Source: Gottschalkia acidurici 9a (lineage in GTDB: Bacteria; Bacillota; Clostridia; Tissierellales; Gottschalkiaceae). Taken from it: a stretch of 32,000 nucleotides of DNA. The notes below the pieces were generated by a model. The model was not told the origin of the DNA. It did not search any database and worked only from the letters and a program-made list of their open reading frames with translations. Positions 9,193 to 25,373 of the stretch are shown here, in pieces. Position numbers and translations under genes: made by a program. Where the stretch lies: assembly GCF_000299355.1 (NCBI RefSeq), contig NC_018664.1:1440380-1472379 (forward strand), in the 5' to 3' direction. Within the stretch, counting starts at the first letter, position 1; every line of letters starts with the position of its first letter.

Positions 9193-9204
9193 AAAATTGT
9201 ACTT

Positions 9205-9233
9205 GCACAAAAGTTAAGTAAGTCTCATATAAT
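9205..9233 (+). promoter_or_regulatory. Candidate sigma-E-type promoter of sigK
   Basis: GCACAAA-N14-CATATAAT compared with the B. subtilis sigma-E consensus (T/G)(A/C)ATA(A/T)(A/T)-N14-CATACA(A/C)T. Lies about 45 nt upstream of the sigK start. Confidence 0.4.
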
Positions 9234-9277
9234 CTTATATATAACTTTTTCTCATAATTCTGGAGGTGCAAGACTTA

Positions 9278-9619
9278 ATGATAACTTCATTAATATCAAA
9301 TTTAACTTTTTTAATAGAACCTATTTTGTTACTAGTAGGATATGTTTCTAATAATAATTCTTTTCCGAAACCTTTATCGCAAGAGGAAGAAAGTCATTAT
9401 CTTATTCTATATGAGCAAGGTGATGAGAATGCTAAAAATATATTAATAGAGAGAAATCTTAGACTAGTAGCACATATAGTTAAAAAATATAATAATACAG
9501 GAAGAGAAACAGACGATCTTATTTCAATAGGAACAATAGGGCTTATTAAAGCTATAAATACATTTGACAGGAATAAAAAAGTAAGATTGGCTACATATGC
9601 AGCTAGATGTATTGATAAT
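9278..9619 (+). CDS. sigK: sigK 5' segment (pro-sigma-K residues 1-114), interrupted by the intervening element
   Basis: GGAGG lies 11 nt upstream of ATG 9278. The segment has a pro-sequence-like hydrophobic leader, then YVSNNNSFPKPLSQEEE, then region 2 (NLRLVAHIVKKY, DLISIGTIGLIKAI, LATYAARCIDN). After base 9619 the frame reads 14 unrelated codons (PIITFRNEFAIAQK) and stops. Confidence 0.93.
9609..9619 (+). repeat. Left copy of the 11-bp direct repeat (attL core)
   Basis: GTATTGATAAT, identical to 21167-21177. Encodes ..C-I-D-N of sigK. Confidence 0.9.
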
Positions 9620-9678
9620 CCAATCATTACTTTTCGGAACGAATTTGCCATAGCACAAAAATAAGCCCAGCCTTTCCA

Positions 9679-11319
9679 TTACCTTTTTTCATATTTAGCA
9701 CCAAACATAACTATATCTATATTTTCTCCATCCCATGTAATTCTGTCTACTAAATTTCTAATTAGACTTCTCTTTTCATCATCTTCGGCATCATCAATCG
9801 TATTCTTAAAAATATTTATCATACGGTTCATTATTTCAAAATTTTCTTCTAGAGAGTGCTTGTCATCAATGCTTTCCCTTAAATCTAATAACTTTTCTTT
9901 AAGATTAGCATTTTCACTTTCGAGTTTATTAATTTGATCTAATATGTGCTTAGCTGCAAGACTTCCTTCTCCTTGTGCTAGAGCATTGATTAAGTTAGCT
10001 ATAGACTTGTTGTTAGATTCAATGTTTTTTTTAAGTATATCAATTTCAGACTCTATATTACTTTGAGATGTTTCTACAGCTACTTTATCATCTTTAATTT
10101 TACTATGAAGTCTTGATTCTTGAGAGGATAATCTTTTAAGTTCTTCTATAACTAATTTATCTAATTTATCACCTCGAATATTCTTGATGTTACAGTTCTG
10201 CCCACGACTCTTTTCTTTTAACTCACATAGATAATAGTATGCTATAGATTTATCTTTGTTAACTCTAGTAGCACCTTTTCTCATGAAACTGCCACAGTTT
10301 TCACAAATCAGTATTCCACTTAATAAAGCATTTGTATTTATGTATCTCTTTCTTAATCCTTTGTCTCTATTCATTTCCATTATTTCATTAGCTTTAATCC
10401 ACATATCACTTGAGATAATACCTTCGTGATCCCCAACAGATATTATCCAGTCTGATTGGTCTCTATTTCTATCAGTAGTACCTTTTACTTGTGTAGTCTT
10501 ATTGTAAGCCATGACTCCATGCTCTCCATCAAAATCAGTTTCATCGGCAAATATTGCATGGCCATTGCCTATAAGATAATTGTAAAGCTTTTTATCTGCT
10601 GTAGCATATACTGGATTCTCTAAGATTATTTTTAAAGTATGTACATAGAAGTTAGCACCATTTTTTGATTTTATATTATTTCGTAGACAATAAGTTTCTA
10701 ATCCAGTAAGAGATTTGATCTCAATATACTTATTATATAACAATTTCACTAACTCAACTTCTTCTTGTACAGTTGATAATTTGTATGCTTTTCTTTGTTT
10801 TCCATTTTGATCCAACATTATAATTTCCTTAGAGATAAATCCGGTAGGAGTAATACCTCCTAGCCAGCGCCCAGTCTTAGCTAATTGTTGCAAGTTATCT
10901 CTTATTCTTTCCGCTATAGTTTCTCTCTCTAGTTGAGCAAATACACTAGCAATGTACATCATAGCTCTACCCATAGGGGTAGAGGTGTCAAACTGCTCTC
11001 TTATAGACACAAAAGAAACATTATAGTTTTGTAGCTCTTCTATAAGTACGGCAAAGTCTGCTATATTTCTGCTTATTCTATCTAACCTATAGCATATAAG
11101 TACGTCAAATTTCTTTTGCTTAGCATCCTTTAACATAAGTTGAAATTGAGGTCTATCAGTAGTCCCACCAGAAAAACCTTCATCTTCATATACTGTTATA
11201 TCGTCATTTGAAATATTAAAATGATTATATGCGTACTCTTTACACATTTGTACCTGATTCTCAATAGATTCACCTTTACCGGTAAATTTTGATTTACGTG
11301 AATAGATTACAGCTTTCAT
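9679..11319 (-). CDS. spoIVCA: Large serine recombinase (SpoIVCA-like sigK element excisionase)
   Basis: 546 aa. Resolvase catalytic domain (AVIYSRKSKF..ENQ, ..LICYRLDRISRN), recombinase domain, zinc ribbon (CENCGS..YYYLC) and a long coiled-coil tail. AAAGGGG RBS. The 3' end lies 60 bp from the left junction. Confidence 0.93.
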   Translation of the reverse strand: MKAVIYSRKSKFTGKGESIENQVQMCKEYAYNHFNISNDDITVYEDEGFSGGTTDRPQFQLMLKDAKQKKFDVLICYRLDRISRNIADFAVLIEELQNYNVSFVSIREQFDTSTPMGRAMMYIASVFAQLERETIAERIRDNLQQLAKTGRWLGGITPTGFISKEIIMLDQNGKQRKAYKLSTVQEEVELVKLLYNKYIEIKSLTGLETYCLRNNIKSKNGANFYVHTLKIILENPVYATADKKLYNYLIGNGHAIFADETDFDGEHGVMAYNKTTQVKGTTDRNRDQSDWIISVGDHEGIISSDMWIKANEIMEMNRDKGLRKRYINTNALLSGILICENCGSFMRKGATRVNKDKSIAYYYLCELKEKSRGQNCNIKNIRGDKLDKLVIEELKRLSSQESRLHSKIKDDKVAVETSQSNIESEIDILKKNIESNNKSIANLINALAQGEGSLAAKHILDQINKLESENANLKEKLLDLRESIDDKHSLEENFEIMNRMINIFKNTIDDAEDDEKRSLIRNLVDRITWDGENIDIVMFGAKYEKR

Positions 11320-11348
11320 TTTAAAACCCCTTTATGTTTATTATGTCA

Positions 11349-11357
11349 ATTATATCA
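11349..11357 (-). promoter_or_regulatory. Candidate extended -10 (TGATATAAT) upstream of the recombinase gene
   Basis: The minus strand reads tttGATATAATtgac about 30 nt upstream of the start. There is no convincing -35 and no clear CATA-type mother-cell -10. Confidence 0.3.
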
Positions 11358-11427
11358 AATTTTGAAATAATAAAAAGCTAATAAGTTAATAATAGATTCA
11401 ATATTTATTATATTTATTTAAAAACAT

Positions 11428-11464
11428 AATAAGAGGCCGAATATAAAGTAGTCAGCCTCTTATT
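11428..11464 (-). terminator. Hairpin terminator after the Coat_F gene pair
   Basis: 10-bp stem aataagaggc / gcctcttatt with a 17-nt loop. On the minus strand it is followed by a T-rich tract. Confidence 0.55.
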
Positions 11465-11478
11465 GTGTAAAACTATAA

Positions 11479-11772
11479 CTATTTTATTGTATCTTGAGAT
11501 TCACTATAAGCATCTAGTAATTGTTGAGTAGGCGTATTATAAGGTTTTTCCCATCCTTTTTGAACAGATAGTTCTGTTACTGCAGTATGTCCGCCTAATA
11601 CTTGGTTTAAGCTTGCTAAATACATTGCTCTTAATTCTGGAGTAGTGGCAGCCATACTAGAAGTAAGATATGCTGTTGCACCAGCAGAAGCACTAGAAAT
11701 CATGCTGTTAGCTATAACTTCATCACTTATATTTGTAGTATCTTTTACTTTATTAGTAAGAAAAGAAGCCAT
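11479..11772 (-). CDS. Spore coat protein, Coat_F-domain family
   Basis: GGGAGG lies 8 nt upstream of ATG 11772; the listed start 11811 overlaps the upstream gene. ISDEVIANSMISS..TPELRAMYLASLNQVLGGH..QKGWEKPY fits the Coat_F pattern. Confidence 0.75.
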   Translation of the reverse strand: MASFLTNKVKDTTNISDEVIANSMISSASAGATAYLTSSMAATTPELRAMYLASLNQVLGGHTAVTELSVQKGWEKPYNTPTQQLLDAYSESQDTIK

Positions 11773-11773
11773 A

Positions 11774-11992
11774 TTATTGTACCTCCCTTGTTGGTGTAAC
11801 TTGATTTTCATTAATAAACTGTTGAATTCCTTTTATTCTTCCCTCTGTTGCTAGAATACCAGCTTCAGCTTGTCTTTTTAAATCTTCATCTGTAATTAGT
11901 GTCTGCATAGCTTTAGAAACTATTAGACCATCTTTCTCCATCTTTAATAAGCCTGTTAGTGATAATAATTCACTTTCCGTAAGTTTTCTCAT
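11774..11992 (-). CDS. Small spore-coat-protein-like partner (Coat_F-related)
   Basis: 72 aa with a GGAGG RBS. LTESELLSLTGLLKMEKDGL..DEDLKRQ resembles the short coat protein usually encoded directly upstream of Coat_F genes. Confidence 0.55.
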   Translation of the reverse strand: MRKLTESELLSLTGLLKMEKDGLIVSKAMQTLITDEDLKRQAEAGILATEGRIKGIQQFINENQVTPTREVQ

Positions 11993-12042
11993 CTTTTAAC
12001 CTCCAACTTGAAAATTAATTTTGATAACATCAATAGTATGTC

Positions 12043-12072
12043 AATTTTAGGACATAACATTCCAGGAACTAA
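12043..12072 (-). promoter_or_regulatory. Candidate mother-cell (sigma-E/K-type) promoter of the coat gene pair
   Basis: The minus strand reads GAATGTT-N15-CATACTAT, about 45 nt upstream of the start. Confidence 0.35.
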
Positions 12073-12331
12073 ATACCAAAAAAAGAATCAATCAAGCAGG
12101 ATTTATATAGATATGAAATAATTGAAACAGAAGAATAACTTTTTATATACAGAAGTTTAAAAAGTCTGTAAGTAACTAGTAAGTTGGAAAGTTAGTGAGT
12201 TTATAGAGATAAAAAAATTATAACTCCTGAAATATTTGAAGAATTAAAAGGATGGAGGGATTAAAGGGAAGCACAGTTGGTTCCCAAATTGGATAGTATG
12301 AACCAACTGCAATTTAGAAATAGCAGATTAT

Positions 12332-12535
12332 CTAACTCATTTTTATACAAGGATAAGAGCCTTTTATATTATCACGATGATACTTACCTTTAGAAGAGGC
12401 AGTTAGTAACCCTTCGTATATATGTTGCGGAATTTCACTATAAGCATATGTGCCGCTATGAAATTCAATTAATAAGTTTTTAGATGAAGGATCATAACTA
12501 ATAGTTTTCAAGTTACTTGAAGATACAGGTATCAT
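12332..12535 (-). CDS. KTSC-domain protein
   Basis: 67 aa with an AGGAGGTG RBS. SSNLKTISYDPSSKNLLIEFHSGTYAYSEIPQHIYEGLLTASSKGKY is the KTSC (lysyl-tRNA-synthetase C-terminal-like) domain pattern. Confidence 0.75.
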   Translation of the reverse strand: MIPVSSSNLKTISYDPSSKNLLIEFHSGTYAYSEIPQHIYEGLLTASSKGKYHRDNIKGSYPCIKMS

Positions 12536-12793
12536 TTAAATACATTCACCTCCTATAAGCAAATATTATTATATGAAAAGAAGTGGATAATTAAACAAGA
12601 AGATACTGGTTAACATAAAAAGTGAAAATTGACAAGAAGCATTAGAGAGTAATATCAGTAATAATATGGGCTATAATTAGCACTAATAAAATCACTAGAT
12701 GATAAAACAATTAGATTAATGACAAAGTTAAAGTTAATAGGACAAAACATATAAGGCATATATATAAACACTAGCAATAAGGAGTTGAGTGTT

Positions 12794-13000
12794 TTGAATA
12801 TCAGAGTACACTTTCCTACGACGGAGGAAGGAATGGAGGAATTACAAGAGAGGATAGATGAAGCACATGCACATTTAATTATGAATCGTATAAATAACCT
12901 TAACTGGAGTTATGAGGACAAAATTGCTTTAGTTAAGCAAATAAGAGGAGAGCTAAAAAGAAGAGGTGAGCAGAAAGTGTCCTTGGAGGCACCTAGTTAG
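12794..13000 (+). CDS. Hypothetical small protein (mobile-element associated)
   Basis: AAGGAG lies 9 nt upstream of TTG 12794; the listed start 12785 abuts the RBS. Helical and charged, about 68 aa. No family assignable by eye. Confidence 0.5.
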   Translation: MNIRVHFPTTEEGMEELQERIDEAHAHLIMNRINNLNWSYEDKIALVKQIRGELKRRGEQKVSLEAPS

Positions 13001-13127
13001 TAAAGAAAAGGAGAGTTCATATATAAATTTAAGAATATCTTGCAAAGCGAGTGAATTATTAACTTCATGAAGTTAATAATAAATGAACTTGGATAGAAAT
13101 TGATATTAACTATATTTATTAAGAAAG

Positions 13128-13315
13128 ATGGTGAATGAGAATGAATTTAAATTACGTAAACACCACGTGAAATATTAGGTTTAAGTAGAAATGACGTAGT
13201 GGGATCACTAGTTGATAGAAAAATAGATATAAATTAAGAGGTCTAACATGCTCTGAAAGAGGAGCAAGGAATCCATCGCCAGATATTATTGTAGAACTTT
13301 TTTAAATATAGAAAG
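13128..13315 (+). pseudogene. Decayed XRE-type HTH regulator remnant
   Basis: Broken frames read ..NEFKLRK / TPREILGLSRNDVVGSLVDRKIDIN* / ..PSPDIIVELF*, which resembles an XRE HTH disrupted by frameshifts and stops. Confidence 0.35.
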
Positions 13316-13513
13316 AACCATTTTAAACTTAAAGAGATTTCAGATATAAATGAAGAATAGGACAAGCATATAGTTATGAAATACTAGATAACATAGATTG
13401 AATAATTTAAGGAACATAGTACTGAAGCTACTACAAGAACATAGAGAATTATATGACGTATTAAGTAAATTACTTACCATAATTACTAATATGAAAGCAT
13501 TCCTAAACTAGTA

Positions 13514-13885
13514 ATGATTGATAAGAGACTTAGTATAGAAATTAAGGCTATATATGTCTACATGGCAAGCTATGCAGGAGCAGAAGACACAGCTTTTCCT
13601 GGAGTTGAATTAATGATAGAGCATTTACGTATAAGCGAAAAAAGATTTTATAAATATAGAAAGGAGTTAGTAGATCAAGACTATGTTTCAATAACTAAAA
13701 CTAGGAAAGAGAATAACATCTATACACTAAATCAAATAATAAAATCTCAACACAGTCAATTTGAATGCGTTCAAAGTGTTGCTACTAATAATAGTAGTAT
13801 TAAAAAACAACACAATAAAAAAATAGAAAAAGTCATGTGTGTGTTAGATAAAAAATTGTTTTTGATAAGGCTAGAAAGATACTAA
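13514..13885 (+). CDS. Helix-turn-helix (HTH_36 / phage replication-initiator N-terminal-like) protein, probably truncated
   Basis: LSIEIKAIYVYMASYAG..AFPGVELMIEHLRISEKRFYKYRKELVDQDYVSITK is the HTH_36-type pattern. There is no RBS, the C-terminal half is low-complexity, and broken reading frames continue to about 14120. Confidence 0.45.
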   Translation: MIDKRLSIEIKAIYVYMASYAGAEDTAFPGVELMIEHLRISEKRFYKYRKELVDQDYVSITKTRKENNIYTLNQIIKSQHSQFECVQSVATNNSSIKKQHNKKIEKVMCVLDKKLFLIRLERY

Positions 13886-14203
13886 AAGTATCTAATGAAG
13901 ACATTGACATTGTAAAAGAGAAATATGAAATTACTAAGATATCTGGGTATAAAATCTAATGATATTCAAGATAAAAGCAATATAAGAGAATAGGTAGATG
14001 CCTATTTCACAGTTTTAAGCAAAGGATAAGTAAATATAGTCTAGAATAATTGGAAAAGACGATACTTGAAAGAAGACAGGAAAGTAATTTAAAAGACTTA
14101 GACTATGTTAGAATAATTCCTTAGTAAAAAAAGTAAGTGGACAAACTCCACTTACCCCAAGTTTAAAAATAAAATAAGGTGCGATTGTTAATATTAGTTT
14201 AAT

Positions 14204-14695
14204 TTAATATATCATATAGTCATCATCATTATAGTCATAAGACCTATCATAATCTTTATGGTTATCACTATGCTTACGACGATCACAATCTTCCAAGATT
14301 TCAAAAGCTCTAGCTACTTTATTTGCAAAATCTATAGGATCATCTATAGAAAAAAAGTGAATATAAAATAATCTTGGCTTGTCAAATAGCCAGTGATTAT
14401 GAAGAGCTGTAACTTCAATGCCTTCTCTACGAAGTTCACTAATAAATGGATTAATTTCTTCTTGCAATATAACAGTTTCTCCTAAGTTTAGAGTTTTACC
14501 TTTACAATCCATTGATTCAAATGAAAAAAGAGCGTTAAGAACAAGTGGACTTTCAGTTCGTATTCCTTCAATGGTTGCTTTAATATTTCTCATACGCGTT
14601 ACTGCACATAGACCATCAGTGGATGTTAAAATCTCACTTTCAAGAATACGTGCGAATCTTCTACACAAGTTAGATGAACTATTATTTGAACTCAT
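14204..14695 (-). CDS. DUF1259-domain protein with acidic Tyr-rich C-terminal tail (putative coat-associated)
   Basis: GGGGGAG RBS. GETVILQEEINPFISELRREGIEVTALHNHWLFDKPRLFYIHF is the DUF1259 (LppY/LpqO) core. No signal peptide. The tail reads HKDYDRSYDYNDDDYMIY. Confidence 0.8.
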   Translation of the reverse strand: MSSNNSSSNLCRRFARILESEILTSTDGLCAVTRMRNIKATIEGIRTESPLVLNALFSFESMDCKGKTLNLGETVILQEEINPFISELRREGIEVTALHNHWLFDKPRLFYIHFFSIDDPIDFANKVARAFEILEDCDRRKHSDNHKDYDRSYDYNDDDYMIY

Positions 14696-14717
14696 TATTA
14701 TTTCTCCCCCTCAATAA

Positions 14718-14744
14718 TATAGTATGTCCAAGGCTTAAAATTGT
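14718..14744 (-). promoter_or_regulatory. Sigma-K-type promoter of the DUF1259 gene
   Basis: The minus strand reads AC-N16-CATACTATA, a full match to the B. subtilis sigma-K consensus AC-N16/17-CATAnnnTA. The -10 lies about 25 nt upstream of the start. Confidence 0.55.
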
Positions 14745-14949
14745 TACTAAAAATTATAAGGAGGTGAATATTTTAATAGATTATATGAGTTATTAGAGGT
14801 GTACTTTAATAGCTAGTGGTGTCTTGTAAAAGCTAAGTATCATAATAAGTGTCCGTGATATAGGATTAGATATTTTATTCTTGGTTCAATCATGGTCTCA
14901 TAAGAGAAAAATAATGGCAGTGCTAGATCATATACTCTCAGATCAGATT

Positions 14950-15455
14950 CACTTCAGTCTTATTCATCATTTAGATCACCAGTAGCATGCAATATTTGGA
15001 CTTTCTAAATATAAACATTTGTATAGTACCTGAGGTAGAATTCTCATAGATATATATTTACTTCTGTCTTTTTTTATATCTTTGTTTTCATAAGCAGCAA
15101 TAAAATTCCATCCACGATCGTTAACTGCTGTTATACGTACAGTTCCTTGTATCATATAAGCCCACTCTGATTGCTGATGCCAATGAACCTCACGTATGCC
15201 ACCAGGTGTCAATCGCTTCCATTGTGGTTGCTACTGGAAGTTCCCTAGCAGTAATCTCACGAGACTGTCCACTTCGTCTTAATACCATAGTAGTATCAGA
15301 AAAAGAAAATTTCAAGTTGGGAATCACACCAGTATCTGTAGCATGTGAGACAAGCATGTTATGATTTCGAAGATCCCGAAGGATATTACGTGGGTCTGCA
15401 TCGGTTGCACCATCTCCATTTTTTATAGGATGTGGTATATATCCAGTAAGTTAGT
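14950..15455 (-). pseudogene. Oxalate decarboxylase (bicupin OxdC/OxdD-like) remnant
   Basis: The minus strand reads [67 protein letters not shown], then a frameshift, then [34 protein letters not shown]. It is colinear with the B. subtilis OxdC N-terminus. The start codon is missing, the frame is shifted, and the gene is truncated within the first cupin. Confidence 0.8.
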
Positions 15456-15555
15456 TACTATTACTCTAATATCTTATTAAGTAAGGATAATATGATTAAC
15501 ACAAATAGCTTGGATAGCATGGATCAATATAAACTAATGAGATGCTCACAGTTAC

Positions 15556-15792
15556 TTTACATTTAGAGAGTACTGTGCAGAATAAATTTAAGGCTCATTA
15601 ACGGACATATTATTTAAGTTGCAATTTAATAAATAGAAATGTTTTTGAAAATTAAATAATACGGTGTTCAAAGGTTGATGAAATTTATGTCGAACCATAA
15701 AATATATGTTACATATGGTATAGTATTAGTATACGTTAAGTTGTAGTAATTAGATATTGTGTCATAGTTCATTTACAAAGGAGAAGGACATA
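15556..15792 (+). repeat. Repeat module R1 (conserved leader/promoter region)
   Basis: Starts tttacatttagagagtactgtgcagaata. Colinear with 16672-16914 by eye at roughly two-thirds identity. Ends at the RBS of the 15793 gene. Confidence 0.75.
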
Positions 15793-16044
15793 ATGAAAAA
15801 AGATATAAATATAAAAAAATTATATTTATTCACATTTCTATCTTTCATTTTAATCTTATTATTTCTTTATTTATTTTCACAGAAAGCTCCATACTTTTAT
15901 ACGGGATTCGATTACCATACAATACCAAATAGATTAAGCAAACTTGCAAACTTCACATTTATAATTTTAATTCTGATTAACTTTATATGTGTATTATTAT
16001 CTATTTTTTATTCAATAAAGATAATATTTAATAAAATTAAGTAA
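15793..16044 (+). CDS. Small membrane protein (2 TM)
   Basis: AAGGAGAAGG RBS upstream of ATG 15793. About 83 aa with two hydrophobic spans. Confidence 0.6.
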   Translation: MKKDINIKKLYLFTFLSFILILLFLYLFSQKAPYFYTGFDYHTIPNRLSKLANFTFIILILINFICVLLSIFYSIKIIFNKIK

Positions 16045-16151
16045 CAGTCTGACTTAGTTTGTTCTACACTAACTGAGTCACAAAATTATTGTTTTATAAC
16101 ATAACTGTTAAAGAATATGCAATAATACGATAGATAATAAGAGGTGAATTT

Positions 16152-16349
16152 ATGGATAAAAGAGATAAACAAGGTAAACACATGATAGGGAAATGTAAAA
16201 AAAATTCTATGATTAATTTGTCAGAGTCAATAAATCGTTCAACAATAGGTGATTTAGGTGAGTTAACAAGATTGGGATGGATCTCCAATATTATCATTAT
16301 AGTTATTATTATTGGAATATTATTTTTTCTCTCCAAATGCTCTAATTAA
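16152..16349 (+). CDS. Small membrane protein (basic N-terminus, single C-terminal TM)
   Basis: AAGAGGTG lies 7 nt upstream of the ATG. 65 aa, ending ..WISNIIIIVIIIGILFFLSKCSN. Confidence 0.6.
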   Translation: MDKRDKQGKHMIGKCKKNSMINLSESINRSTIGDLGELTRLGWISNIIIIVIIIGILFFLSKCSN

Positions 16350-16440
16350 GTTAAATCATAATCATATTAGAGTATTATGATGTAAAAACATATCAGTAAA
16401 CACGCTTGATCTATAATATTTATAACTTGAGGGTTACTTA

Positions 16441-16488
16441 TATTATTCAAAGTTGAATTTTACGGTATTATTATATTTAAATTCAAGT
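16441..16488 (+). repeat. Repeat S1 (conserved promoter-like sequence)
   Basis: tattattcaaagTTGAATtttacggtattattatatTTAAATtcaa matches 18745-18790, with the same 18-nt spacing between the -35-like and -10-like hexamers. Confidence 0.6.
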
Positions 16489-16547
16489 AAAAAGATAAGT
16501 TTAAAGTCAGCAAGATTAGAAAGGAGCTTATGAAATAGAGGTGACAT

Positions 16548-16649
16548 ATGGAAGATAAGAAAGAAAAACTAAAAGAACAAATGAAGGAATATATAGATAA
16601 TTTACTTAGATTAGCAGAAGATGAAGGACGCTGGACTATTTTGAAATAG
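16548..16649 (+). CDS. Possible 33-aa ORF (MEDKKEKLKEQMKEYIDNLLRLAEDEGRWTILK)
   Basis: GAGGTG RBS 5 nt upstream. Lies downstream of the S1 promoter-like repeat. Below the ORF-track length cutoff, with no homology assignable. Confidence 0.3.
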   Translation: MEDKKEKLKEQMKEYIDNLLRLAEDEGRWTILK

Positions 16650-16671
16650 AAGTAAAAAACAATAAAGGTCA

Positions 16672-16914
16672 TTTACATTTAGAAAGTACTATACAGAATA
16701 GGTCTAGAGTTTATTAATAGATAAACTGTTTAAATTACAGCTAAACTCATATAAAAGTTCTTCGAAAATCGAATAATGTGGTGTTTAAAAGTTAACGTGC
16801 TTTTACCTAGCTATAAGATATGTGGAAAATATGGTATAATTTTGATAGTAATTAATTCATAATCGTTAGATATTATGTACAAGCAGTAAGTAAGTCTATA
16901 GGAGGAATTAGTCA
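16672..16914 (+). repeat. Repeat module R2
   Basis: Starts tttacatttagaaagtactatacagaata, is colinear with R1, and ends at a GGAGG RBS. Confidence 0.75.
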
Positions 16915-17250
16915 TTGTATAAGGAAAAAACGAAAATCATCAAACTCATTTTAGAAAAAGATTTAGAGTCTTTATATGTGGGAGTATGATCTCAGCTACC
17001 CTTTTAGGGGTATATGGTCAGGATATTGCTTATTATATAAGTGACCATATAGAAAAATTATCTCCTGTGTATTGTAAGCAATAACACTGATAAGTATAGT
17101 ATTGTTTTTAACTACATCCATATTAATATATATACCCATAAAAAACAAAAACTGAAAAGATTTATTCCATATTTGATTATTAATAGTCTTATAGGTATGT
17201 TGATTTCTATGCTTTCATTATTAGTTATGATTATGTGGTGGGGATAATGG
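16915..17250 (+). pseudogene. Decayed gene downstream of R2 (membrane-protein remnant)
   Basis: GGAGG plus TTG 16915 opens a 24-codon ORF. Hydrophobic segments follow in broken frames (..MISATLLGVYG.., ..FIPYLIINSLIGMLISMLSLLVMIMWWG*). Confidence 0.35.
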
Positions 17251-17316
17251 TAATTACTTTATAATTTTTAGATATAATAAAAATGGGCAAACATTCATGA
17301 AACTGTAAAAGAAGAA

Positions 17317-17523
17317 ATGAATCAAACTATTTTTGTGAAAGATGGCAAGGTAATATGTCATCTACATGGGAATCCTGAAAATACTGGAATAGGGTTCAAC
17401 TTTGGTACATATCTGCTAAATTCAAAAGAAGGCAGATACATTAGTTTTATGTCAAAATCAAAGTTATCATTTAAAATTACGGTCTCAGAGAATGGTATAA
17501 GATATTTTGAATATGTTAAATAA
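17317..17523 (+). CDS. Hypothetical protein
   Basis: 68-aa ORF with a weak RBS and no recognisable family. Confidence 0.3.
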   Translation: MNQTIFVKDGKVICHLHGNPENTGIGFNFGTYLLNSKEGRYISFMSKSKLSFKITVSENGIRYFEYVK

Positions 17524-18039
17524 ATTAATATTCTTCGCAATATTATTTTACGACACAATAGTTAGATAATGCTATATCTGTAATTATGATAGCAGGATAT
17601 GAAAAAAGTTATCTTACTTTTTCGTGATTATTTTTTGAATTGGTGTAAAATCACTTGTTATCTTTCTTTTACCAATACCGAATTCAAAAAGAAATGTATT
17701 TACAACTGACATAAAGATGGTGATAAATCTACCAGATGAAGCAGATTGTGAAGCGATTGTAAGAACTTATACAGCAAAATAATTTAATAAATTTAATATC
17801 CATCAACTCACTAAAATTAAAGATAAAGTAGGAGGAAACATAGAGGGTGATATTCTAGCACTATACTTAAAAGACGGAAAAGGGATTTTGAATTTTTTCT
17901 TTAAAAAAATAAAACTAATGTAAGTTTTGATGATGTTTCGGATGTTAAAATAACTGCTTTTTCTACAATGGGATTGGCCACAGTAGATGAACAGGAAAAG
18001 AGAGTAATCAACGGACAACTTAAATAAGATGAGAAAGGA

Positions 18040-18237
18040 ATGTATTCTTATGAGATCCAACGTTACTATACTCAGTATGAAAAATGGTTTATGGAGTCCA
18101 TTCTTATAGAAGTAAAGTATCAAATTGATGGAAATGGATATGTATCAGTATTTGCAGTAACTACAACAAATGCAGAAGATGGTTCCAATTTCTTTGAAAA
18201 CGAAACATTAAATAATCCTATTGAACCTGAAGAATAA
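18040..18237 (+). CDS. Hypothetical protein
   Basis: 65-aa ORF with an AGAAAGGA RBS. Preceded by a frameshifted ORF remnant (17830-18028). Confidence 0.4.
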   Translation: MYSYEIQRYYTQYEKWFMESILIEVKYQIDGNGYVSVFAVTTTNAEDGSNFFENETLNNPIEPEE

Positions 18238-18325
18238 AATCAGTAAAGTTACAGATATTTAATTTTAAAGGTCAGTATCTATGTTGAGACTTTTTCTATT
18301 CAAAATAAATAGGAGGTGTAGAGAA

Positions 18326-18730
18326 TTGAGTAAGCATAAGGCAGATTTGGATTTAAGATCAAGTATGATTTTAGCTCTTATACTATTAGCTTTATCACTA
18401 ATTGTAAGTCAGATTTCTGATGAAAAGATTAAAATGAATATAATAATTATTTTATTTAGCATTATGACTATTGCACTACTATATAGAAGTTATAAAGACT
18501 TTAAAGATAAGACTTACTCTACTACTATATTTATAGCATTAACTAACATAGCAATAATCATTTTAGGTATATTATATATGTTTGTATTTTTAAGATACTA
18601 TCAAGTTACAGACATTAACCTTATAATAAAGATGAGAAAAACTGAACGTATACTTAGTGTATTTATATTTGCTATGATATTTTTAAAAAACTTTTTAAGA
18701 AGCGAAAGATTTGTAAATAGAGATAAATAG
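18326..18730 (+). CDS. Membrane protein (about 4 TM)
   Basis: AGGAGG lies 9 nt upstream of in-frame TTG 18326. 134 aa with four hydrophobic spans. Confidence 0.6.
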   Translation: MSKHKADLDLRSSMILALILLALSLIVSQISDEKIKMNIIIILFSIMTIALLYRSYKDFKDKTYSTTIFIALTNIAIIILGILYMFVFLRYYQVTDINLIIKMRKTERILSVFIFAMIFLKNFLRSERFVNRDK

Positions 18731-18744
18731 TATTTAAAACACCG

Positions 18745-18790
18745 TATTATTCAAAACTGAATTTTACGATGTTCTTATGTTAAAATTCAA
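18745..18790 (+). repeat. Repeat S2
   Basis: tattattcaaaaCTGAATtttacgatgttcttatgtTAAAATtcaa is a copy of S1, again placed immediately after a membrane-protein gene. Confidence 0.6.
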
Positions 18791-18840
18791 ATGAAAATTA
18801 ATGAAAACATAGGTATGAAGTTAAAAAATTGATAAGAAGG

Positions 18841-18870
18841 ATATACAGAATAGATTTAAGGCTCATTAAT
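18841..18870 (+). repeat. Repeat R3 (partial copy of R1/R2 5' end)
   Basis: atacagaatagatttaaggctcattaa is nearly identical to R1 gtgcagaataaatttaaggctcattaa (15576-15602). Confidence 0.65.
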
Positions 18871-18905
18871 AAATTAATTAATTTTAAAAATTTTAATAAA
18901 TAAGA

Positions 18906-18945
18906 GGCAAATTCCCTTATCTAAATAAGCATAAGGTAATTTGCC
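18906..18945. terminator. Bidirectional hairpin terminator between convergent genes
   Basis: 15-bp stem ggcaaattcccttat / ataaggtaatttgcc with one mismatch. The minus-strand version is followed by a T-rich run. Confidence 0.65.
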
Positions 18946-18959
18946 GTTATATTACAATA

Positions 18960-19505
18960 TTAAGATATAGGATCCTGAATTAGTGTTGCAAATACAATTT
19001 GATGGAAGTGTCCATCATCAAAAGTTGTTCTAGCCTTAACAAAATGAATGTGTTTTCCGTTACCTACATCAATAGCTGGACCAGTTTCAGTACCAAGTTC
19101 ATGATGGTGGTTTACGAAGAAATCAGTATTAGTTAGTAGAGCATGTTTATGGCCACCACCAGGTAGAGGAATTGCCTCACTAGTAACTCCTGCAACACGG
19201 TGATTATGACGATCGTCACACTCTTCCGCTAATTTAGTGCTACCTAAGAATTCATGCACGTGAGATTGAGTTCCTTCTTCATTTTCATCACAATGGTCAT
19301 GACGCTTACGTCCATAATACTCATTTTCTCTATAGTCATCATATTCATTATAATAACGATCTTTATCACAATCGTGTTTATGTTTCTTTTTATCATCTTT
19401 ATTACAATCATGTTCATGCTTCTTTCTATTATCCTTATCACAGTGGTTATGACAAGGGGGATTTATTCTCTTTATGCTTTGAATAATATGACAAAATAGA
19501 CACAT
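18960..19505 (-). CDS. YmaF-family protein with Cys/His/Lys-rich repetitive N-terminal extension
   Basis: The C-terminal 100 aa (HVHEFLGST..HNHRVAGVT..GGGHKHAL..HHHELGTETGPAIDVGNGKHIHFV..DGHFHQIVFATL) match the YmaF HxH repeat pattern. The N-terminus carries 12-aa CDKDNRKKHEHD-type repeats. The RBS is weak. Confidence 0.75.
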   Translation of the reverse strand: MCLFCHIIQSIKRINPPCHNHCDKDNRKKHEHDCNKDDKKKHKHDCDKDRYYNEYDDYRENEYYGRKRHDHCDENEEGTQSHVHEFLGSTKLAEECDDRHNHRVAGVTSEAIPLPGGGHKHALLTNTDFFVNHHHELGTETGPAIDVGNGKHIHFVKARTTFDDGHFHQIVFATLIQDPIS

Positions 19506-19561
19506 CCTTATTATTAATTTATTGGCGAGTATACAATTTTTGTTATATACAAGCTATATTA

Positions 19562-19588
19562 CATTATATGCACCTATCCTTAATGAGT
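19562..19588 (-). promoter_or_regulatory. Candidate sigma-K-type promoter of the YmaF-like gene
   Basis: The minus strand reads AC-N16-CATATAATG (last base G instead of A), about 60 nt upstream of the start. Confidence 0.4.
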
Positions 19589-19715
19589 GACTTGAAAAAA
19601 GTGTTTTACTTAAACATTTAGGAAGTTAAAATTAAAAGAAAAGTTAATTCAAACTTAGAAGAAATGATGTGAAAAAAGTATATAATTAAATAAGTCCTAC
19701 CGAATATACCGACAG

Positions 19716-19756
19716 ACACTTTAGACAAAACTACTAAGATTAAAGTGTATTTTTTT
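19716..19756 (+). terminator. Orphan intrinsic terminator
   Basis: Hairpin acacttta-N17-taaagtgt followed by atttttttatt. It is nested inside an outer cctacc/ggtagg pairing (19694-19769). No plus-strand gene lies upstream. Confidence 0.5.
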
Positions 19757-19967
19757 ATTGTGGGTAGGTTCAACATGAATTACCTTTTGAGGATTAAAAT
19801 AGTTATAGGTTAGGCTATAGAGCTAATTTATAGTTTTTACCTAAATATTATACTATAATCTTCAAATATAGTACTTTGTAAAGTGTTCCTAGAGTCTGGT
19901 AAATATATGATAAAATAAGTGTAATTAATTATATTTACACAAACACAATATCATATGTGTTAAGGAT

Positions 19968-20321
19968 GTGAAGAGAATAGAATTAAGAAAAATAATCTCA
20001 AAAAGTCTACAGGGAGTACTAGGTGTAATAAGTTCAATTCTATTTACAATAAGTTTTCCTTATTTCGGATGGAACTTTGTAATAAATGTTACAAAAGCAT
20101 TTGAAAATATAGGTTTTAGTATTGATCTAGTTGGACGTCCAGGAACTTATGATCCTGGAGCAGTTATTGTATCAGGATTATATTTATTGACAATATTGTT
20201 AGCTTCTTATCTTACTATTAAAAAGACAAAGTATAAACTCTATGGTAAAATAATTTTGTTCAGTGGAATACTCATGACTATCATGGTTTTTGTATTAGTT
20301 AGTTCTATGATATGGTTCTGA
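19968..20321 (+). CDS. Membrane protein (about 3-4 TM)
   Basis: 117-aa hydrophobic ORF. The GTG start has a poorly spaced AAGGA. Confidence 0.45.
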   Translation: MKRIELRKIISKSLQGVLGVISSILFTISFPYFGWNFVINVTKAFENIGFSIDLVGRPGTYDPGAVIVSGLYLLTILLASYLTIKKTKYKLYGKIILFSGILMTIMVFVLVSSMIWF

Positions 20322-20850
20322 TTATACATAATGATAAACTACAGTATGAGTTTTGAATGTTTAACATTAGAGTAAATGAAGATAGTTAATTTAGTGAACT
20401 AAAGGCTGGATCATATCAAGCTATAGAGGTATATTTTTCATGCCTAATATTTACTTAAGCTATATCATATATTTAACCATGTGAAACTTAATTAGAATAG
20501 AAGATGACTATATAATTGAGTTTTAATTATACTTTCTGTTTCAGTGATTTTTATTATTTTTTGACTGTTATTTTGGAAAAAAGTAAGAGTAGATCTTATA
20601 CACAATTATCATTAAAATAACAAAAGATTACGAGATATATGGAAATGCTATGGGAAAGGCGACTTTATCTATAAGAATATTAATTCTGGTTATGGTAATG
20701 ATTTTTCTACTTGATAATTCTGAATTAATTTCAGTAAGGTTTTTATATGTATTCTATTTATTAATATGATATAGAAAAAATATAACGGTAGCATGATCTA
20801 GTTTAATCACAAAAATTATTAAATTGATAAGTAACAATACAAACTGTATT

Positions 20851-20895
20851 AATAGACTAGACTATTGAATGACTCTATATCTAGTCTATTTTTTA
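20851..20895 (+). terminator. Orphan terminator-like hairpin
   Basis: 10-bp stem aatagactag / ctagtctatt with a 20-nt loop, followed by a T-run. Confidence 0.4.
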
Positions 20896-21007
20896 TATAG
20901 AAAACAACAAAATATGTACAATTAAAAGAATTAATATAAAAATCACCTTTTAACTTTAATTTTAAGACTACTAAAAACAACTATAATATTATAAAAAATT
21001 AAGGAGC

Positions 21008-21150
21008 CTAATTGAAATGCATCTCAATTAATTTACTAAAATCTTCTTTAGTTAGATTTAATGATCTTCTCGTGCTTTTTATTATTCTTCCACCTACAGT
21101 ACTAAGGTTATATAAAGACTTTAAGTTATCAACAGTCTTGCTGAAATAAA
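21008..21150 (-). pseudogene. Truncated XRE/cI-like HTH remnant at the right end of the element
   Basis: The minus strand reads ..NLSTVGGRIIKSTRRSLNLTKEDFSKLIEMHFN*, which is an HTH helix-1/2 pattern. It has no start codon and ends prematurely. Confidence 0.4.
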
Positions 21151-21166
21151 ACGTTCCAGATCACAA

Positions 21167-21177
21167 GTATTGATAAT
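21167..21177 (+). repeat. Right copy of the 11-bp direct repeat (attR core)
   Basis: GTATTGATAAT is followed in frame by GAA ATA CTT ATG (EILM), which continues sigK. Confidence 0.9.
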
Positions 21178-21549
21178 GAAATACTTATGACGATACGATC
21201 GTGTAAAAAAACACAATCAGAGGTTTCACTACAAGACCCTATAGGAGTAGACCGTGAGGGTAATGAATTATCACTTATGGATGTACTGGGAACAGACCCA
21301 GATGAAATAACAGATAAGGTTCATCTCAAAATCGAAATAAAAAAGCTTTATGATAAGATAAGCAAGGTTTTAAAAGCGAGAGAAAAAACCATAATACAAC
21401 TTAGATATGGTCTTTTAAATGGTGAACGTAAGACTCAGAGAGAAATAGCTGATATGCTTGGAATTTCAAGGTCATATGTATCCAGAATTGAAAAAAGAGC
21501 TGTACAAAAATTATCAAAAGAATTTAATTATGAAATTAAAGGAAGGTAA
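21178..21549 (+). CDS. sigK: sigK 3' segment (residues 115-237; regions 3-4)
   Basis: In frame from 21178: EILMTIRSCKKTQSEVSLQDPIG..REKTIIQLRYGL..KTQREIADMLGISRSYVSRIEKRAVQKL. This is colinear with B. subtilis SigK ..ENEILMHLRALKK..VSLHDPIG..ISRSYVSRIEKRAL. Confidence 0.93.
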   Translation, partial: EILMTIRSCKKTQSEVSLQDPIGVDREGNELSLMDVLGTDPDEITDKVHLKIEIKKLYDKISKVLKAREKTIIQLRYGLLNGERKTQREIADMLGISRSYVSRIEKRAVQKLSKEFNYEIKGR

Positions 21550-21694
21550 GACATTTGTATCTTTTTTACATTTAACTCAAATAAGATAACATGTTAAATA
21601 AAATCTATAATTAATATTATAAAAATATTAAAATATCAAACAAAGATTTATTAGGCATATTTATCAATATACTAATTTTGAATAATAAACTCGC

Positions 21695-21728
21695 AAAAGT
21701 AGCTATAATTTTCTATATAGCTACTTTT
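21695..21728. terminator. Bidirectional terminator between sigK and the convergent lipoprotein gene
   Basis: 13-bp perfect stem aaaagtagctata / tatagctactttt with an 8-nt loop. A/T runs lie on both sides. Confidence 0.75.
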
Positions 21729-21780
21729 AATGTTTTATATTACAATGAACTTATAACATGAATAGTATGACAAGACATTA

Positions 21781-24186: not shown

Positions 24187-24360
24187 TAAACTTGTATGTT
24201 GTACTAGTTTGAATAATTAGGACAACATACAATCAAACATATACTAAAAAACAATATATAATTCTTATAAAAGATAAACTCACTTCAAAATAATAATTCC
24301 ATAAATAAAGTCCAAAAATTTCATAAAAGAGTCAAAAAATATTAAATGTGTGTGATAAAT

Positions 24361-25368: not shown

Positions 25369-25373
25369 AATCT

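What the first reader, a model, noticed from the sequence alone, without database searches (positions are those of the whole stretch)
9205..21549. sigK is split by an 11.6-kb skin-like element; joining at an 11-bp direct repeat restores a 237-aa pro-sigma-K
ORF 9278.. encodes sigma regions 1.2-2.4 and ends in ..LATYAARCIDN followed by 14 unrelated codons. The frame entering at 21178 reads EILMTIRSCKKTQSEVSLQDPIG..ISRSYVSRIEKRAV, which covers regions 3-4. GTATTGATAAT occurs at 9609-9619 and again at 21167-21177. Deleting one copy and everything between them fuses the halves in frame (114 + 123 codons), colinear with B. subtilis SigK (..AARCIENEILMHLR..). A 546-aa large serine recombinase lies immediately inside the left junction. 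This is the architecture known for B. subtilis skin (about 48 kb) and C. difficile skin (about 14.6 kb). This element is smaller, has different cargo, and its junction (within CIDN/EILM) appears to lie upstream of the B. subtilis split point as I recall it.
Basis: partly seen in the sequence, partly recalled or inferred. Interest (0 to 1): 0.8.

Follow-up and report, generated by a model that had tools for sequence, protein, structure and literature searches.

The report
Known skin element splitting sigK
The late sporulation sigma-factor gene sigK of Gottschalkia acidurici 9a is split by an 11.6-kb decayed prophage carrying its own recombinase; this is real, but it is the classic "skin" arrangement and this element is already listed in a 2022 survey.

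Summary
GTATTGATAAT occurs exactly twice, at the two break points of sigK. Removing 11,558 bp fuses 114 + 123 codons into a 237-aa protein that scores 365.9 bits on the NCBIfam SigK equivalog model (cut-off 298.65). A complete 546-aa large serine recombinase lies 59 bp inside the left junction.

The window comes from Gottschalkia (Clostridium) acidurici 9a. Galperin et al. 2022 (Table S7) already list this element as one of 15 skin elements, so its existence is not new.

The split (Asn114|Glu115 in CIDN|EILM) is not upstream of the B. subtilis split. The evidence indicates it is the same codon junction.

- The attP and attB symmetry both centre on the AA of the Asn codon, which is the predicted crossover.
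- Nine further elements with recombinases 43-62% identical to this one sit at the same sigK site. They range from 2.1-kb minimal elements to larger elements with phage-like lysogeny and replication genes.
- A 68-aa acidic ORF (12794-13000) is the only other gene shared with those elements. It carries a conserved promoter (TAGGACAAA-N11-ATATAWAT), which makes it a candidate excision factor expressed in the mother cell.

No excision experiment exists for this organism.

The parts
9204..9233 (+). Putative sigK promoter. The -10 box CATATAAT (9226-9233) is preceded by AC 17 nt upstream.
   Evidence: Best promoter-like hit on the + strand (TGCACA-18-TATAAT). The CATA-type -10 was read from the sequence. 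The assignment to sigma-E/sigma-K is inference.
9278..9619 (+). sigK 5' segment (spoIVCB equivalent): codons 1-114, covering the pro-sequence and regions 1.2-2.4.
   Evidence: Sigma70_r2 at residues 56-122. Aligns from residue 1 to B. subtilis pro-sigma-K, 8vjl_B.
9609..9619 (+). Left copy of the 11-bp direct repeat GTATTGATAAT (core of attL). The predicted crossover dinucleotide is AA at 9617-9618.
   Evidence: repeat. (symmetry centre). (related elements share only AATG at this point).
9620..21177 (.). The intervening element, 11,558 bp (one repeat copy counted): a decayed prophage.
   Evidence: Its GC content (28.5%) is similar to that of the flanks. The only phage-derived gene with a recognisable function is a truncated replication initiator.
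9620..9664 (+). 14 read-through codons plus a stop codon, encoded by the element, that end the truncated 5' ORF.
9635..9641 (+). Outer motif of the recombinase-proximal attP arm, CGGAACG. It is the inverted partner of CGTTCC at 21152-21157.
   Evidence: CGGAA(A)C lies at the same 15-nt distance from the junction in L081, L082 and L087, and GGAAAC at the same position in L154 and L155.
9679..11319 (-). Large serine recombinase (SpoIVCA equivalent, Curi_c13490), 546 aa, convergent with the sigK 5' segment.
   Evidence: Resolvase, Recombinase and Zn_ribbon_recom domains. The N-terminus reads ..IYSRKS.., with Arg8 and Ser10 in the usual catalytic positions. A 100% identical protein comes from G. 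acidurici 9a.
11349..11357 (-). Extended -10 box TGATATAAT, 29 nt upstream of the recombinase start codon. Probable housekeeping-type promoter.
   Evidence: Read. No CATA-type box, no GGACAA box and no overlapping skr-like ORF is present. Inference only.
11479..11992 (-). Cargo: two adjacent small genes, 72 aa and 110 aa. The second has a Coat F domain.
   Evidence: Pfam Coat_F, E = 8e-17. Each matches a separate full-length PHROG of unknown function.
12332..12535 (-). Cargo: KTSC-domain protein, 67 aa.
12738..12765 (+). Conserved promoter motif TAGGACAAA-N11-ATATATAT upstream of the small ORF.
   Evidence: The motif occurs once in the window. In the 161 fetched loci it occurs only directly upstream of the homologous small ORF: L082, L083, L086/L160, L154, L155, L156, L158, L159, L161.
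12794..13000 (+). Candidate recombination directionality factor (Curi_c13520): 68 aa, pI 5.9, predicted helical hairpin.
   Evidence: It is the only non-recombinase ORF of the element with homologues in related sigK elements. The family has 38 clusters in 5.8 billion proteins. It lies inside the 2.7-kb and 6.3-kb elements L155 and L154. AF2 model pLDDT 88.
13514..13885 (+). Truncated phage replication initiator or DnaD-like loader: 123 aa against profiles of about 310 aa.
   Evidence: PHROG 7882, 186 and 270 match only profile positions of roughly 25-150. Pfam HTH_36.
14204..14695 (-). Cargo: DUF1259 protein, 163 aa, with CATACTAT 25 nt upstream of its start.
14976..15212 (-). Cupin fragment (gene remnant).
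   Evidence: Cupin_1 profile positions 41-80 of 151 only.
18960..19505 (-). Cargo: YmaF-family protein with a His/Asp/Lys-rich N-terminus. AC-N16-CATATAAT lies upstream.
   Evidence: Pfam YmaF, E = 5e-37. Upstream sequence.
21152..21157 (+). Outer motif of the distal attP arm, CGTTCC.
21167..21177 (+). Right copy of the 11-bp direct repeat (core of attR). The predicted crossover dinucleotide is AA at 21175-21176.
21178..21549 (+). sigK 3' segment (spoIIIC equivalent): codons 115-237 plus the stop codon, covering regions 3-4.
   Evidence: Sigma70_r4 at residues 178-227.
21260..21269 (+). Unoccupied second sigK attachment site, GTAATGAATT, at nt 425 of the restored gene.
   Evidence: It matches 9 of 10 positions of the phiS63 core GTAATGAAAT, which lies at nt 427 of C. 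perfringens sigK (PMC3442830). Sequence.

Best explanation
This is the sigK-intervening (skin) element of Gottschalkia acidurici 9a. It is an 11,558-bp decayed prophage integrated at the Asn114|Glu115 junction of sigK.

Proposed mechanism, with the status of each step marked:

1. The element's large serine recombinase is made from what looks like a housekeeping promoter with an extended -10 box (inferred).
2. A 68-aa acidic protein encoded 1.5 kb away is made only in the mother cell. Its conserved promoter combines a SpoIIID-like GGACAA box with a CATA-type -10 box (inferred from conservation).
3. This small protein acts as the recombination directionality factor, allowing the recombinase to synapse attL with attR (inferred by analogy with CD1234 of C. 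difficile and Skr of B. subtilis).
4. Strand exchange occurs at the AA dinucleotide (9617-9618 and 21175-21176). This point lies at the centre of both the attB dyad (GTATT..AATAC) and the attP dyad (TTCC-N18-A|A-N18-GGAA) (inferred from symmetry and from the 4-bp AATG core shared by related elements).
5. The element leaves as a circle, and an intact 237-codon sigK is restored behind its own CATATAAT promoter (shown in silico).
6. The product is pro-sigma-K. Its N-terminal pro-sequence aligns with the B. subtilis one, so a second, proteolytic activation step is expected (the alignment is shown; the processing is inferred).
7. The forespore chromosome keeps the element, so it is inherited vertically (inferred from the B. 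subtilis and C. difficile paradigm).
For: - The fusion is in frame and scores above the SigK equivalog cut-off.
- It is colinear with B. subtilis pro-sigma-K from residue 1 and with 80 uninterrupted sigK genes from related species.
- Both sigK halves are equally well conserved: 77% and 75% identity to the Brassicibacter halves.
- The recombinase is full length, has all three large-serine-recombinase domains, and has Arg8/Ser10 in place.
- The closest recombinase homologues examined (53-62% identity) lie in sigK at the identical codon junction, as do more distant ones at 43-48%.
- The att geometry is conserved in the window, L154 and L155.
- The organism forms endospores and only one sigK locus is annotated (PMC3519856).
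- No intact SigK from this genome appears among the 120 best hits to the fused protein, although the genome is in the collection.
- An intact spoIIIA operon lies 6 kb downstream.
- For the small ORF: it is the only partner gene shared with related elements. It is present in the 2.7-kb element of C. ultunense. Its family is very small, 38 clusters. Its promoter is conserved while protein identity is only about 29-47%. Its size and pI (68 aa, 5.9) resemble CD1234 (72 aa, pI 5.5, dependent on sigma-E and SpoIIID) and Skr (64 aa).
Against: - No excision experiment exists for this organism, and none was found in the literature searches.
- The 2.1-kb Brassicibacter element has the recombinase but no copy of the small ORF. 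Either the small ORF is not strictly needed, or that element relies on something else, or it is a fossil.
- The small ORF has no detectable similarity to any solved structure, Pfam family or PHROG family.
- In the larger relatives with phage-like lysogeny and replication genes it lies in the gene block that follows a Cro-like HTH gene. Shared phage ancestry could therefore explain part of the co-occurrence.
- The promoter assignments rest on consensus resemblance in AT-rich DNA. CATAYWAT is only mildly enriched in the window (26 found, 18.3 expected).
- The presence of SpoIIID and SpoIVFB in this genome was not checked here.
Confidence: 0.85

Rival explanations
1. The element and outcome are the same, but the control follows the B. 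subtilis logic. Excision would be timed by sporulation-specific transcription of the recombinase itself, or by an unrecognised factor. The 68-aa ORF would be only a conserved phage early gene, not the directionality factor.
For: - In B. subtilis, spoIVCA is transcribed from a sigma-E/SpoIIID promoter.
- The Brassicibacter element lacks the small ORF yet keeps an intact recombinase and both sigK halves.
- In L082 and L157 the small ORF follows a Cro-like HTH gene, next to phage-like replication or recombination genes.
Against: - Upstream of the recombinase there is a TGATATAAT extended -10 box, with no CATA-type box, no GGACAA box and no overlapping skr-like ORF.
- The small ORF survives intact in three strongly decayed elements (window, L154, L155), where almost everything else from the phage has gone.
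- Its promoter is better conserved than its protein.
Confidence: 0.25
2. The insertion is a dead end: sigK is a pseudogene permanently inactivated by a fossil element that no longer excises.
For: The element is heavily decayed. It has a truncated replication gene, a cupin fragment, and stretches of 1.3 kb and 0.85 kb with no ORF of 60 aa or more. No experimental data exist.
Against: - Both sigK halves are free of stops and frameshifts, and together they exceed the equivalog cut-off.
- The repeat is a perfect 11-mer.
- The recombinase is complete.
- The species is described as endospore-forming.
- No second sigK is known.
- The neighbouring spoIIIA operon is intact.
Confidence: 0.05
3. The element is still an autonomous mobile element, such as an inducible satellite or mobilisable island. 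It would excise on stress rather than in development, and the sigK reconstitution would be incidental.
For: Related recombinases are carried by larger elements with phage-like lysogeny and replication genes in the same site, for example Tepidimicrobium L082 with repressor, M78 peptidase, Gam, RecT, Rep_O and DnaC genes. A functional phage integrated in sigK, phiS63, is known.
Against: No structural, packaging, lysis, transfer or intact replication genes were found in Pfam, NCBIfam or PHROGs. There is no repressor / M78 peptidase module. The size is 11.6 kb.
Confidence: 0.05

Closest known systems
B. subtilis skin element (spoIVCB - skin - spoIIIC, SpoIVCA recombinase, Skr RDF)
   Same: - Same target gene and, on the evidence here, the same codon junction: Asn|Glu of CI(E/D)N|EILM, with the core containing AAT.
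- The recombinase lies next to the 5' sigK fragment and converges on it.
- The element is a defective prophage.
- The product is pro-sigma-K with an N-terminal pro-sequence.

   Different: - 11.6 kb against 48 kb, with unrelated cargo.
- The identity between the junctions is 11 bp (GTATTGATAAT) rather than the 5-bp AATGA.
- No skr-like ORF overlaps the 5' end of the recombinase gene.
- The recombinase promoter looks like a housekeeping type rather than sigma-E/SpoIIID type.
C. difficile skinCd (CD1231 recombinase + CD1234 RDF)
   Same: - Small size class (14.6 kb).
- Apparently constitutive recombinase promoter (TATAAT close to the start codon).
- A small acidic partner protein of about 70 aa with no database similarity, and a promoter carrying mother-cell-type signals.

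   Different: - skinCd sits at the second sigK site, about 85 nt further downstream, and in the opposite orientation.
- C. difficile sigma-K has no pro-sequence, whereas the G. acidurici protein has one.
The catalogue of 15 skin elements in Galperin et al. 2022 (bioRxiv 10.1101/2022.02.25.481979, Fig. 2, Table S7)
   Same: This very element is entry 15: G. acidurici 9a, CP003326.1, positions 1,450,043-1,461,566, 11.5 kb, 13 ORFs, Curi_c13480/13490/13620.
   Different: - The catalogue gives ORF coordinates only, explicitly without adjusting for the repeats.
- It does not define att sites, the crossover or a directionality factor.
[quoted passage not shown] Within the recombinase clade studied here, one small ORF is shared.
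Prophage-type relatives in the same site (Tepidimicrobium xylanilyticum L082/L083, Desulforamulus reducens MI-1 L084)
   Same: Recombinases 56-60% identical, the same sigK junction, and the same small ORF. Tepidimicrobium carries the exact promoter motif. In D. reducens the motif is a close variant, ATAGGACAAT...CATATACT.
   Different: They keep phage-like lysogeny and replication modules. In D. reducens the recombinase/attP cassette is inverted relative to sigK, with the recombinase next to the 3' fragment.

Membership tests
skin (sigK-intervening) element | Interrupts the coding sequence of sigK, leaving two fragments that are colinear with an intact SigK. | tested here: met
skin (sigK-intervening) element | Encodes a SpoIVCA-like large serine recombinase at one edge of the element. 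| tested here: met
   The stop codon lies 59 bp from the left junction.
skin (sigK-intervening) element | Short identical core at both junctions, flanked by imperfect inverted repeats; a precise deletion restores the reading frame. | tested here: met
   11-bp core. attP and attB dyads centre on the same point. The fusion is in frame.
skin (sigK-intervening) element | Excision during sporulation, restricted to the mother cell. | not testable with these tools
   Needs PCR or long-read sequencing on sporulating cultures. No published data were found.
skin (sigK-intervening) element | A cognate recombination directionality factor under mother-cell control (Skr, CD1234). | tested here: inconclusive
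   The candidate at 12794-13000 is supported by co-occurrence and by a conserved promoter. There is no functional or structural proof, and the Brassicibacter element lacks it.
Large serine recombinase | Resolvase catalytic domain with the nucleophilic Ser, plus a recombinase domain, a zinc-ribbon domain and a coiled-coil. | tested here: met
   Pfam Resolvase 3-152, Recombinase 186-315, Zn_ribbon_recom 332-395. Weak SMC-like coiled-coil matches at residues 319-517. Arg8 and Ser10 are present in the sequence. The catalytic domain matches TP901-1 integrase 3bvp, E = 4e-18.
SigK (TIGR02846 equivalog), pro-protein form | Score above the curated cut-off over the full profile, plus an N-terminal pro-sequence aligned with B. 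subtilis pro-sigma-K. | tested here: met
   365.9 bits against 298.65. The alignment to 8vjl_B starts at residue 1, and ..LLLVGYVSNNNSFPKPL aligns with ..VFLVSYVKNNAFPQPL. Processing by SpoIVFB was not tested.
Functional temperate phage | Structural, packaging and lysis modules plus an intact lysogeny and replication module. | tested here: not met
   None found in Pfam, NCBIfam or PHROGs. The replication initiator is truncated.
Site-2 skin elements (C. difficile, C. tetani, C. perfringens phiS63) | Insertion at the GTAATGAAAT core near nt 427 of sigK. | tested here: not met
   That site (21260-21269) is intact here. The insertion is at nt 342.

The most novel reading that the evidence does not exclude
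The 68-aa helical-hairpin protein (Curi_c13520 family, 38 clusters) is a previously unrecognised family of recombination directionality factors. It would be dedicated to the recombinase clade that targets the Asn|Glu site of sigK in Tissierellia and Clostridia-class relatives. Its conserved AATAGGACAAA-N10-CATATAWAT promoter would be the switch that ties excision to the mother cell, through sigma-E/sigma-K plus SpoIIID. The same recombinase-plus-factor unit would then run from the larger elements with phage-like genes, through 11.6-kb and 6.3-kb remnants, down to a 2.7-kb element that is little more than the unit itself.
Probability: 0.5. Interest if true: 0.45.

Novelty: already known. Interest (0 to 1): 0.25.

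Why it matters
Skin elements are the textbook case of developmentally programmed DNA rearrangement in bacteria. This one adds no new principle, and its existence is already published.

Its modest value is comparative:
- It shows that the B. subtilis attachment point in sigK is also used by a widespread recombinase clade in Tissierellia and Clostridia-class relatives.
- It provides a decay series of elements at one site, running from elements with phage-like lysogeny and replication modules down to a recombinase-only insert of 2.1 kb.
- It points to a small, testable candidate directionality factor with a conserved promoter. Directionality factors are otherwise known for only two skin elements.

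For genome annotation, the practical point is that Curi_c13480 and Curi_c13620 should be annotated together as one sigK.

Tried and rejected
- An exact look-up of the recombinase in the contig index found nothing. The organism was identified from the homologue search instead.
- Rfam found no RNA family in 9000-22000, even at E = 0.1.
- The generic sigma-70 promoter scan gave fewer hits than shuffled sequence (77 found, 86 expected). It is therefore uninformative as a count.
- The search for a skr-like ORF overlapping the 5' end of the recombinase gene found none.
- The 0.85 kb next to attR was searched for a small ORF. Only low-complexity ORFs of 45 aa or less turned up, with no homologues.
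- Foldseek of the AF2 model of the 68-aa protein against the PDB gave no match with E below 4.8. This includes the SprA-SprB entries that surfaced in the sequence search.
- My first promoter pattern had the wrong spacing and matched nothing. The corrected pattern is the one reported.
- Scans of metagenome and viral contigs with the small-ORF profile added only four loci. Two were too short or cut off to show whether a recombinase is nearby.
- CATAYWAT enrichment in the window is weak. I therefore do not claim that the cargo genes belong to the sigma-K regulon.
- I considered a symmetry centre for attP exactly at the junction (offset 0, also 13 of 26 matches). I rejected it because the dinucleotide there differs between attL (TC) and attR (TG).

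Full report
**Observation.** The 11-mer GTATTGATAAT occurs exactly twice in the 32-kb window, at 9609-9619 and 21167-21177. About 0.07 exact copies per strand are expected from base composition. With one mismatch allowed the word is unremarkable: 3 found, 3.0 expected. What makes it significant is where the copies lie. The ORF starting at 9278 encodes sigma regions 1.2-2.4, ends its homology at ...AARCIDN, and runs on for 14 unrelated codons. The frame entering at 21178 continues EILMTIRS... to a stop at 21549. Deleting 11,558 bp joins 114 + 123 codons in frame. The 237-aa product scores 365.9 bits on NCBIfam TIGR02846 (SigK equivalog, cut-off 298.65), covering profile positions 4-227 of 227. 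It scores well below the cut-offs for SigE, SigF and SigG. It aligns without a gap, from residue 1, to the B. subtilis pro-sigma-K chain of PDB 8vjl.

**Source and prior knowledge.** The recombinase is 100% identical to a protein of Gottschalkia (formerly Clostridium) acidurici 9a. The genome paper lists sigK simply as Curi_c13480 and does not mention a split (PMC3519856). The survey of sporulation genes by Galperin et al. (bioRxiv 10.1101/2022.02.25.481979) reports split sigK genes in 15 Firmicutes. Its Table S7 lists [quoted passage not shown]. The element is therefore already catalogued. That table explicitly makes no adjustment for the terminal repeats, and it defines neither att sites nor a directionality factor. 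I found no experimental work on excision in this organism.

**Anatomy.** The recombinase (9679-11319, minus strand) has Resolvase, Recombinase and Zn_ribbon_recom domains. It also has a coiled-coil-like C-terminal stretch and the IYSRKS motif, with Arg8 and Ser10 in the catalytic positions. It converges on the 5' sigK fragment, and its stop codon is 59 bp from the junction.

The rest of the element is not a working phage:
- The only phage-derived gene with a recognisable function is the N-terminal third of a DnaD-like replication initiator (13514-13885).
- There is a cupin fragment.
- Two stretches, 1.3 kb and 0.85 kb long, contain no ORF of 60 aa or more.
- The intact cargo comprises a Coat F-domain gene pair, a KTSC protein, a DUF1259 protein and a His-rich YmaF-family protein.
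- Several cargo genes have CATA-type boxes upstream, but the motif is only weakly enriched. I do not press the point.
- The GC content of the element (28.5%) is similar to that of the flanks.

The left flank keeps the host gene order seen in relatives: RNase J, QueT, YceG, methyltransferase, U32 peptidase, PRK, PBP, then sigK. The right flank carries aroE, pilin genes, efp and an intact spoIIIAA-AF operon.

**Where the split lies.** The evidence points the other way.
- B. subtilis recombines at AATGA (PMC10745906).
- Its spoIVCB ORF is only 129 aa including read-through (Table S7). That excludes the downstream Gly-Asn|Glu site and fits Asn113|Glu114 of CIEN|EILM, which aligns with Asn114|Glu115 here.
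- The literature places skinCd, skinCt and phage phiS63 at a second site (core GTAATGAAAT at nt 427) and skinBs elsewhere (PMC3442830; PMC6957869).
- In this window that second site is intact at 21260-21269 (GTAATGAATT, nt 425 of the restored gene).

G. acidurici therefore uses the B. subtilis site, with the B. subtilis arrangement of the recombinase gene.

**Relatives.** All 80 best sigK loci from other species are continuous across the junction. Most are from Tissierellia and all are 71% identical or less. The 120 best protein hits to the fused SigK are all full length, and none comes from G. acidurici. No intact second copy from this genome is therefore on record.

In contrast, every one of the closest recombinase homologues I examined lies in sigK:

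| Element | Locus | Recombinase identity | Notes |
|---|---|---|---|
| Brassicibacter mesophilus | L081 | 61% | Both sigK fragments in the locus |
| Tepidimicrobium xylanilyticum | L082/L083 | 60% | Larger element with phage-like lysogeny and replication genes |
| Desulforamulus reducens MI-1 | L084/L085 | 56% | Cassette inverted relative to sigK |
| Keratinibaculum paraultunense | L154 | 56% | Both sigK fragments in the locus |
| [Clostridium] ultunense | L155 | 62% | Both sigK fragments in the locus |
| Desulfosporosinus | L157 | 53% | 5' sigK fragment in the locus |

Viral-contig hits down to 43% identity also lie in sigK. Wherever the junction sequence was extracted, it falls at the same Asn|Glu point.

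Four elements have both junctions in hand:

| Element | Length | Identity between the two junctions |
|---|---|---|
| Window | 11,558 bp | 11 bp |
| L154 | 6,250 bp | AATG |
| L155 | 2,662 bp | AATG |
| L081 | 2,094 bp | AATG |

The L081 element holds nothing but the recombinase, and its conceptual fusion gives an intact 233-aa SigK.

**Crossover.** In the window, L154 and L155, the reconstructed attP has the geometry TTCC-N18-A|A-N18-GGAA. The reconstructed attB has the dyad GTATT(GATA|ATGA)AATAC. Both centre between the two A's of the Asn codon. In D. reducens the recombinase-proximal motif is again 18 nt from that centre, although the cassette is inverted. The core shared by all elements is AAT(G), and in the window the identity stops after AAT. 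The staggered cut is therefore predicted at AA (9617-9618 and 21175-21176). An alternative centre at the junction itself scores equally well on symmetry, but it would need a dinucleotide that differs between attL and attR. All of this is inference from sequence.

**Control of excision.** Upstream of the recombinase there is an extended -10 box (TGATATAAT, 11357-11349). There is no CATA-type box, no GGACAA box, and no ORF overlapping the start as skr does in B. subtilis (PMC6957869). This resembles the constitutive CD1231 promoter of C. difficile.

I compared all ORFs of 30 aa or more in the element with the related elements. Apart from the recombinase, only one has homologues at the expected place: 12794-13000 (Curi_c13520; 68 aa, pI 5.9). 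Findings on this ORF:
- Its family has only 38 clusters among 5.8 billion proteins.
- By matching contig lengths between the two hit lists, most members on long contigs share their contig with a recombinase of this clade.
- It is one of three ORFs in the 2.7-kb C. ultunense element, and it is present in the 6.3-kb Keratinibaculum element.
- About 25 nt upstream of its start lies TAGGACAAA-N11-ATATAWAT. This motif occurs once in the window.
- In the 161 fetched loci the motif occurs only in front of the homologous ORF, in nine further loci. Protein identity to the window ORF is only about 29-47%.
- From my own knowledge, GGACAA matches the core of the B. subtilis SpoIIID consensus (WWRRACAR-Y), and CATATA(A/T)AT is the type of -10 box used by mother-cell sigma factors. 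A TAGGACAAG box also lies in the leader of the spoIIIA operon in this window.
- The C. difficile directionality factor CD1234 is 72 aa, has pI 5.5, has no database relatives, and depends on sigma-E and SpoIIID.

I therefore propose that this ORF is the directionality factor, with a probability of about one half.

Reservations on the small ORF:
- The Brassicibacter element lacks it.
- Shared phage ancestry may inflate the co-occurrence.
- The AF2 model (a helical hairpin, pLDDT 88) matches nothing in the PDB.

**Verdict.** The finding is real and correctly interpreted, apart from the remark about the B. subtilis split point. However, it is the classic skin architecture and this particular element is already published. 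The added details are useful but incremental: the att core, the shared site, the recombinase clade and its decay series, and a candidate directionality factor with a conserved promoter.

Noticed in passing
L081 9574-11667 (Brassicibacter mesophilus, JBNPXI010000021.1): A 2,094-bp sigK insert containing only the recombinase (61% identical to the one here). This is smaller than the 2.6-kb minimum in the published catalogue. The conceptual fusion gives an intact 233-aa SigK. The distal attP arm has lost the GTTTCC motif and there is no copy of the 68-aa ORF, so the element may be fixed in place or may depend on a factor supplied in trans.
   Followed up: partly
L155 8123-10784 ([Clostridium] ultunense Esp, LT669839.1): A 2,662-bp sigK insert containing the recombinase, the 68-aa-family ORF with its conserved promoter, and one 126-aa ORF. 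The recombinase matches in two tblastn pieces (residues 1-467 and 501-541) and is called as 485 aa, so its C-terminus may be disrupted.
   Followed up: partly
window 21260-21269: The second known sigK attachment site, used by C. perfringens phiS63 and reported for skinCd and skinCt, is present and unoccupied (GTAATGAATT). Both sites encode Asn-Glu and share AATGAA followed a few bases later by CTTATG. This quasi-repeat inside sigK might have helped recombinases switch between the two sites.
   Followed up: no
window 27450-27530: Upstream of spoIIIAA there is a sigma-E-like pair (TCATATT-N13-CATATCTA) and a TAGGACAAG box just before the ribosome-binding site. It offers an internal example of what mother-cell and SpoIIID signals may look like in this organism.
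   Followed up: no
window 11479-11992, 14204-14695, 18960-19505: The intact cargo of the element looks spore-related rather than phage-related: a Coat F-domain gene pair, DUF1259, and a YmaF-family protein with a His/Asp/Lys-rich N-terminus. CATACTAT or CATATAAT boxes lie upstream of these genes. They could be mother-cell-expressed coat proteins carried on the excised circle.
   Followed up: partly
window 16045-17316 and 20322-21166: Two stretches inside the element, 1.3 kb and 0.85 kb long, have no ORF of 60 aa or more and no Rfam match. They are probably decayed phage genes.
   Followed up: partly
L084 10001-12058 (Desulforamulus reducens MI-1, CP000612.1): Same recombinase clade and same sigK junction, but the recombinase/attP cassette is inverted, so the recombinase is followed co-directionally by the 3' sigK fragment. 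This is consistent with integration polarity being set only by the central dinucleotide. This genome is not among the 15 listed in the 2022 survey.
   Followed up: partly
window 24346-26367: A run of four small ORFs downstream of aroE, three of them with N-terminal methylation (type IV pilin-like) motifs. Keratinibaculum and C. ultunense have the matching region, with T2SSE/T2SSF genes in addition.
   Followed up: no
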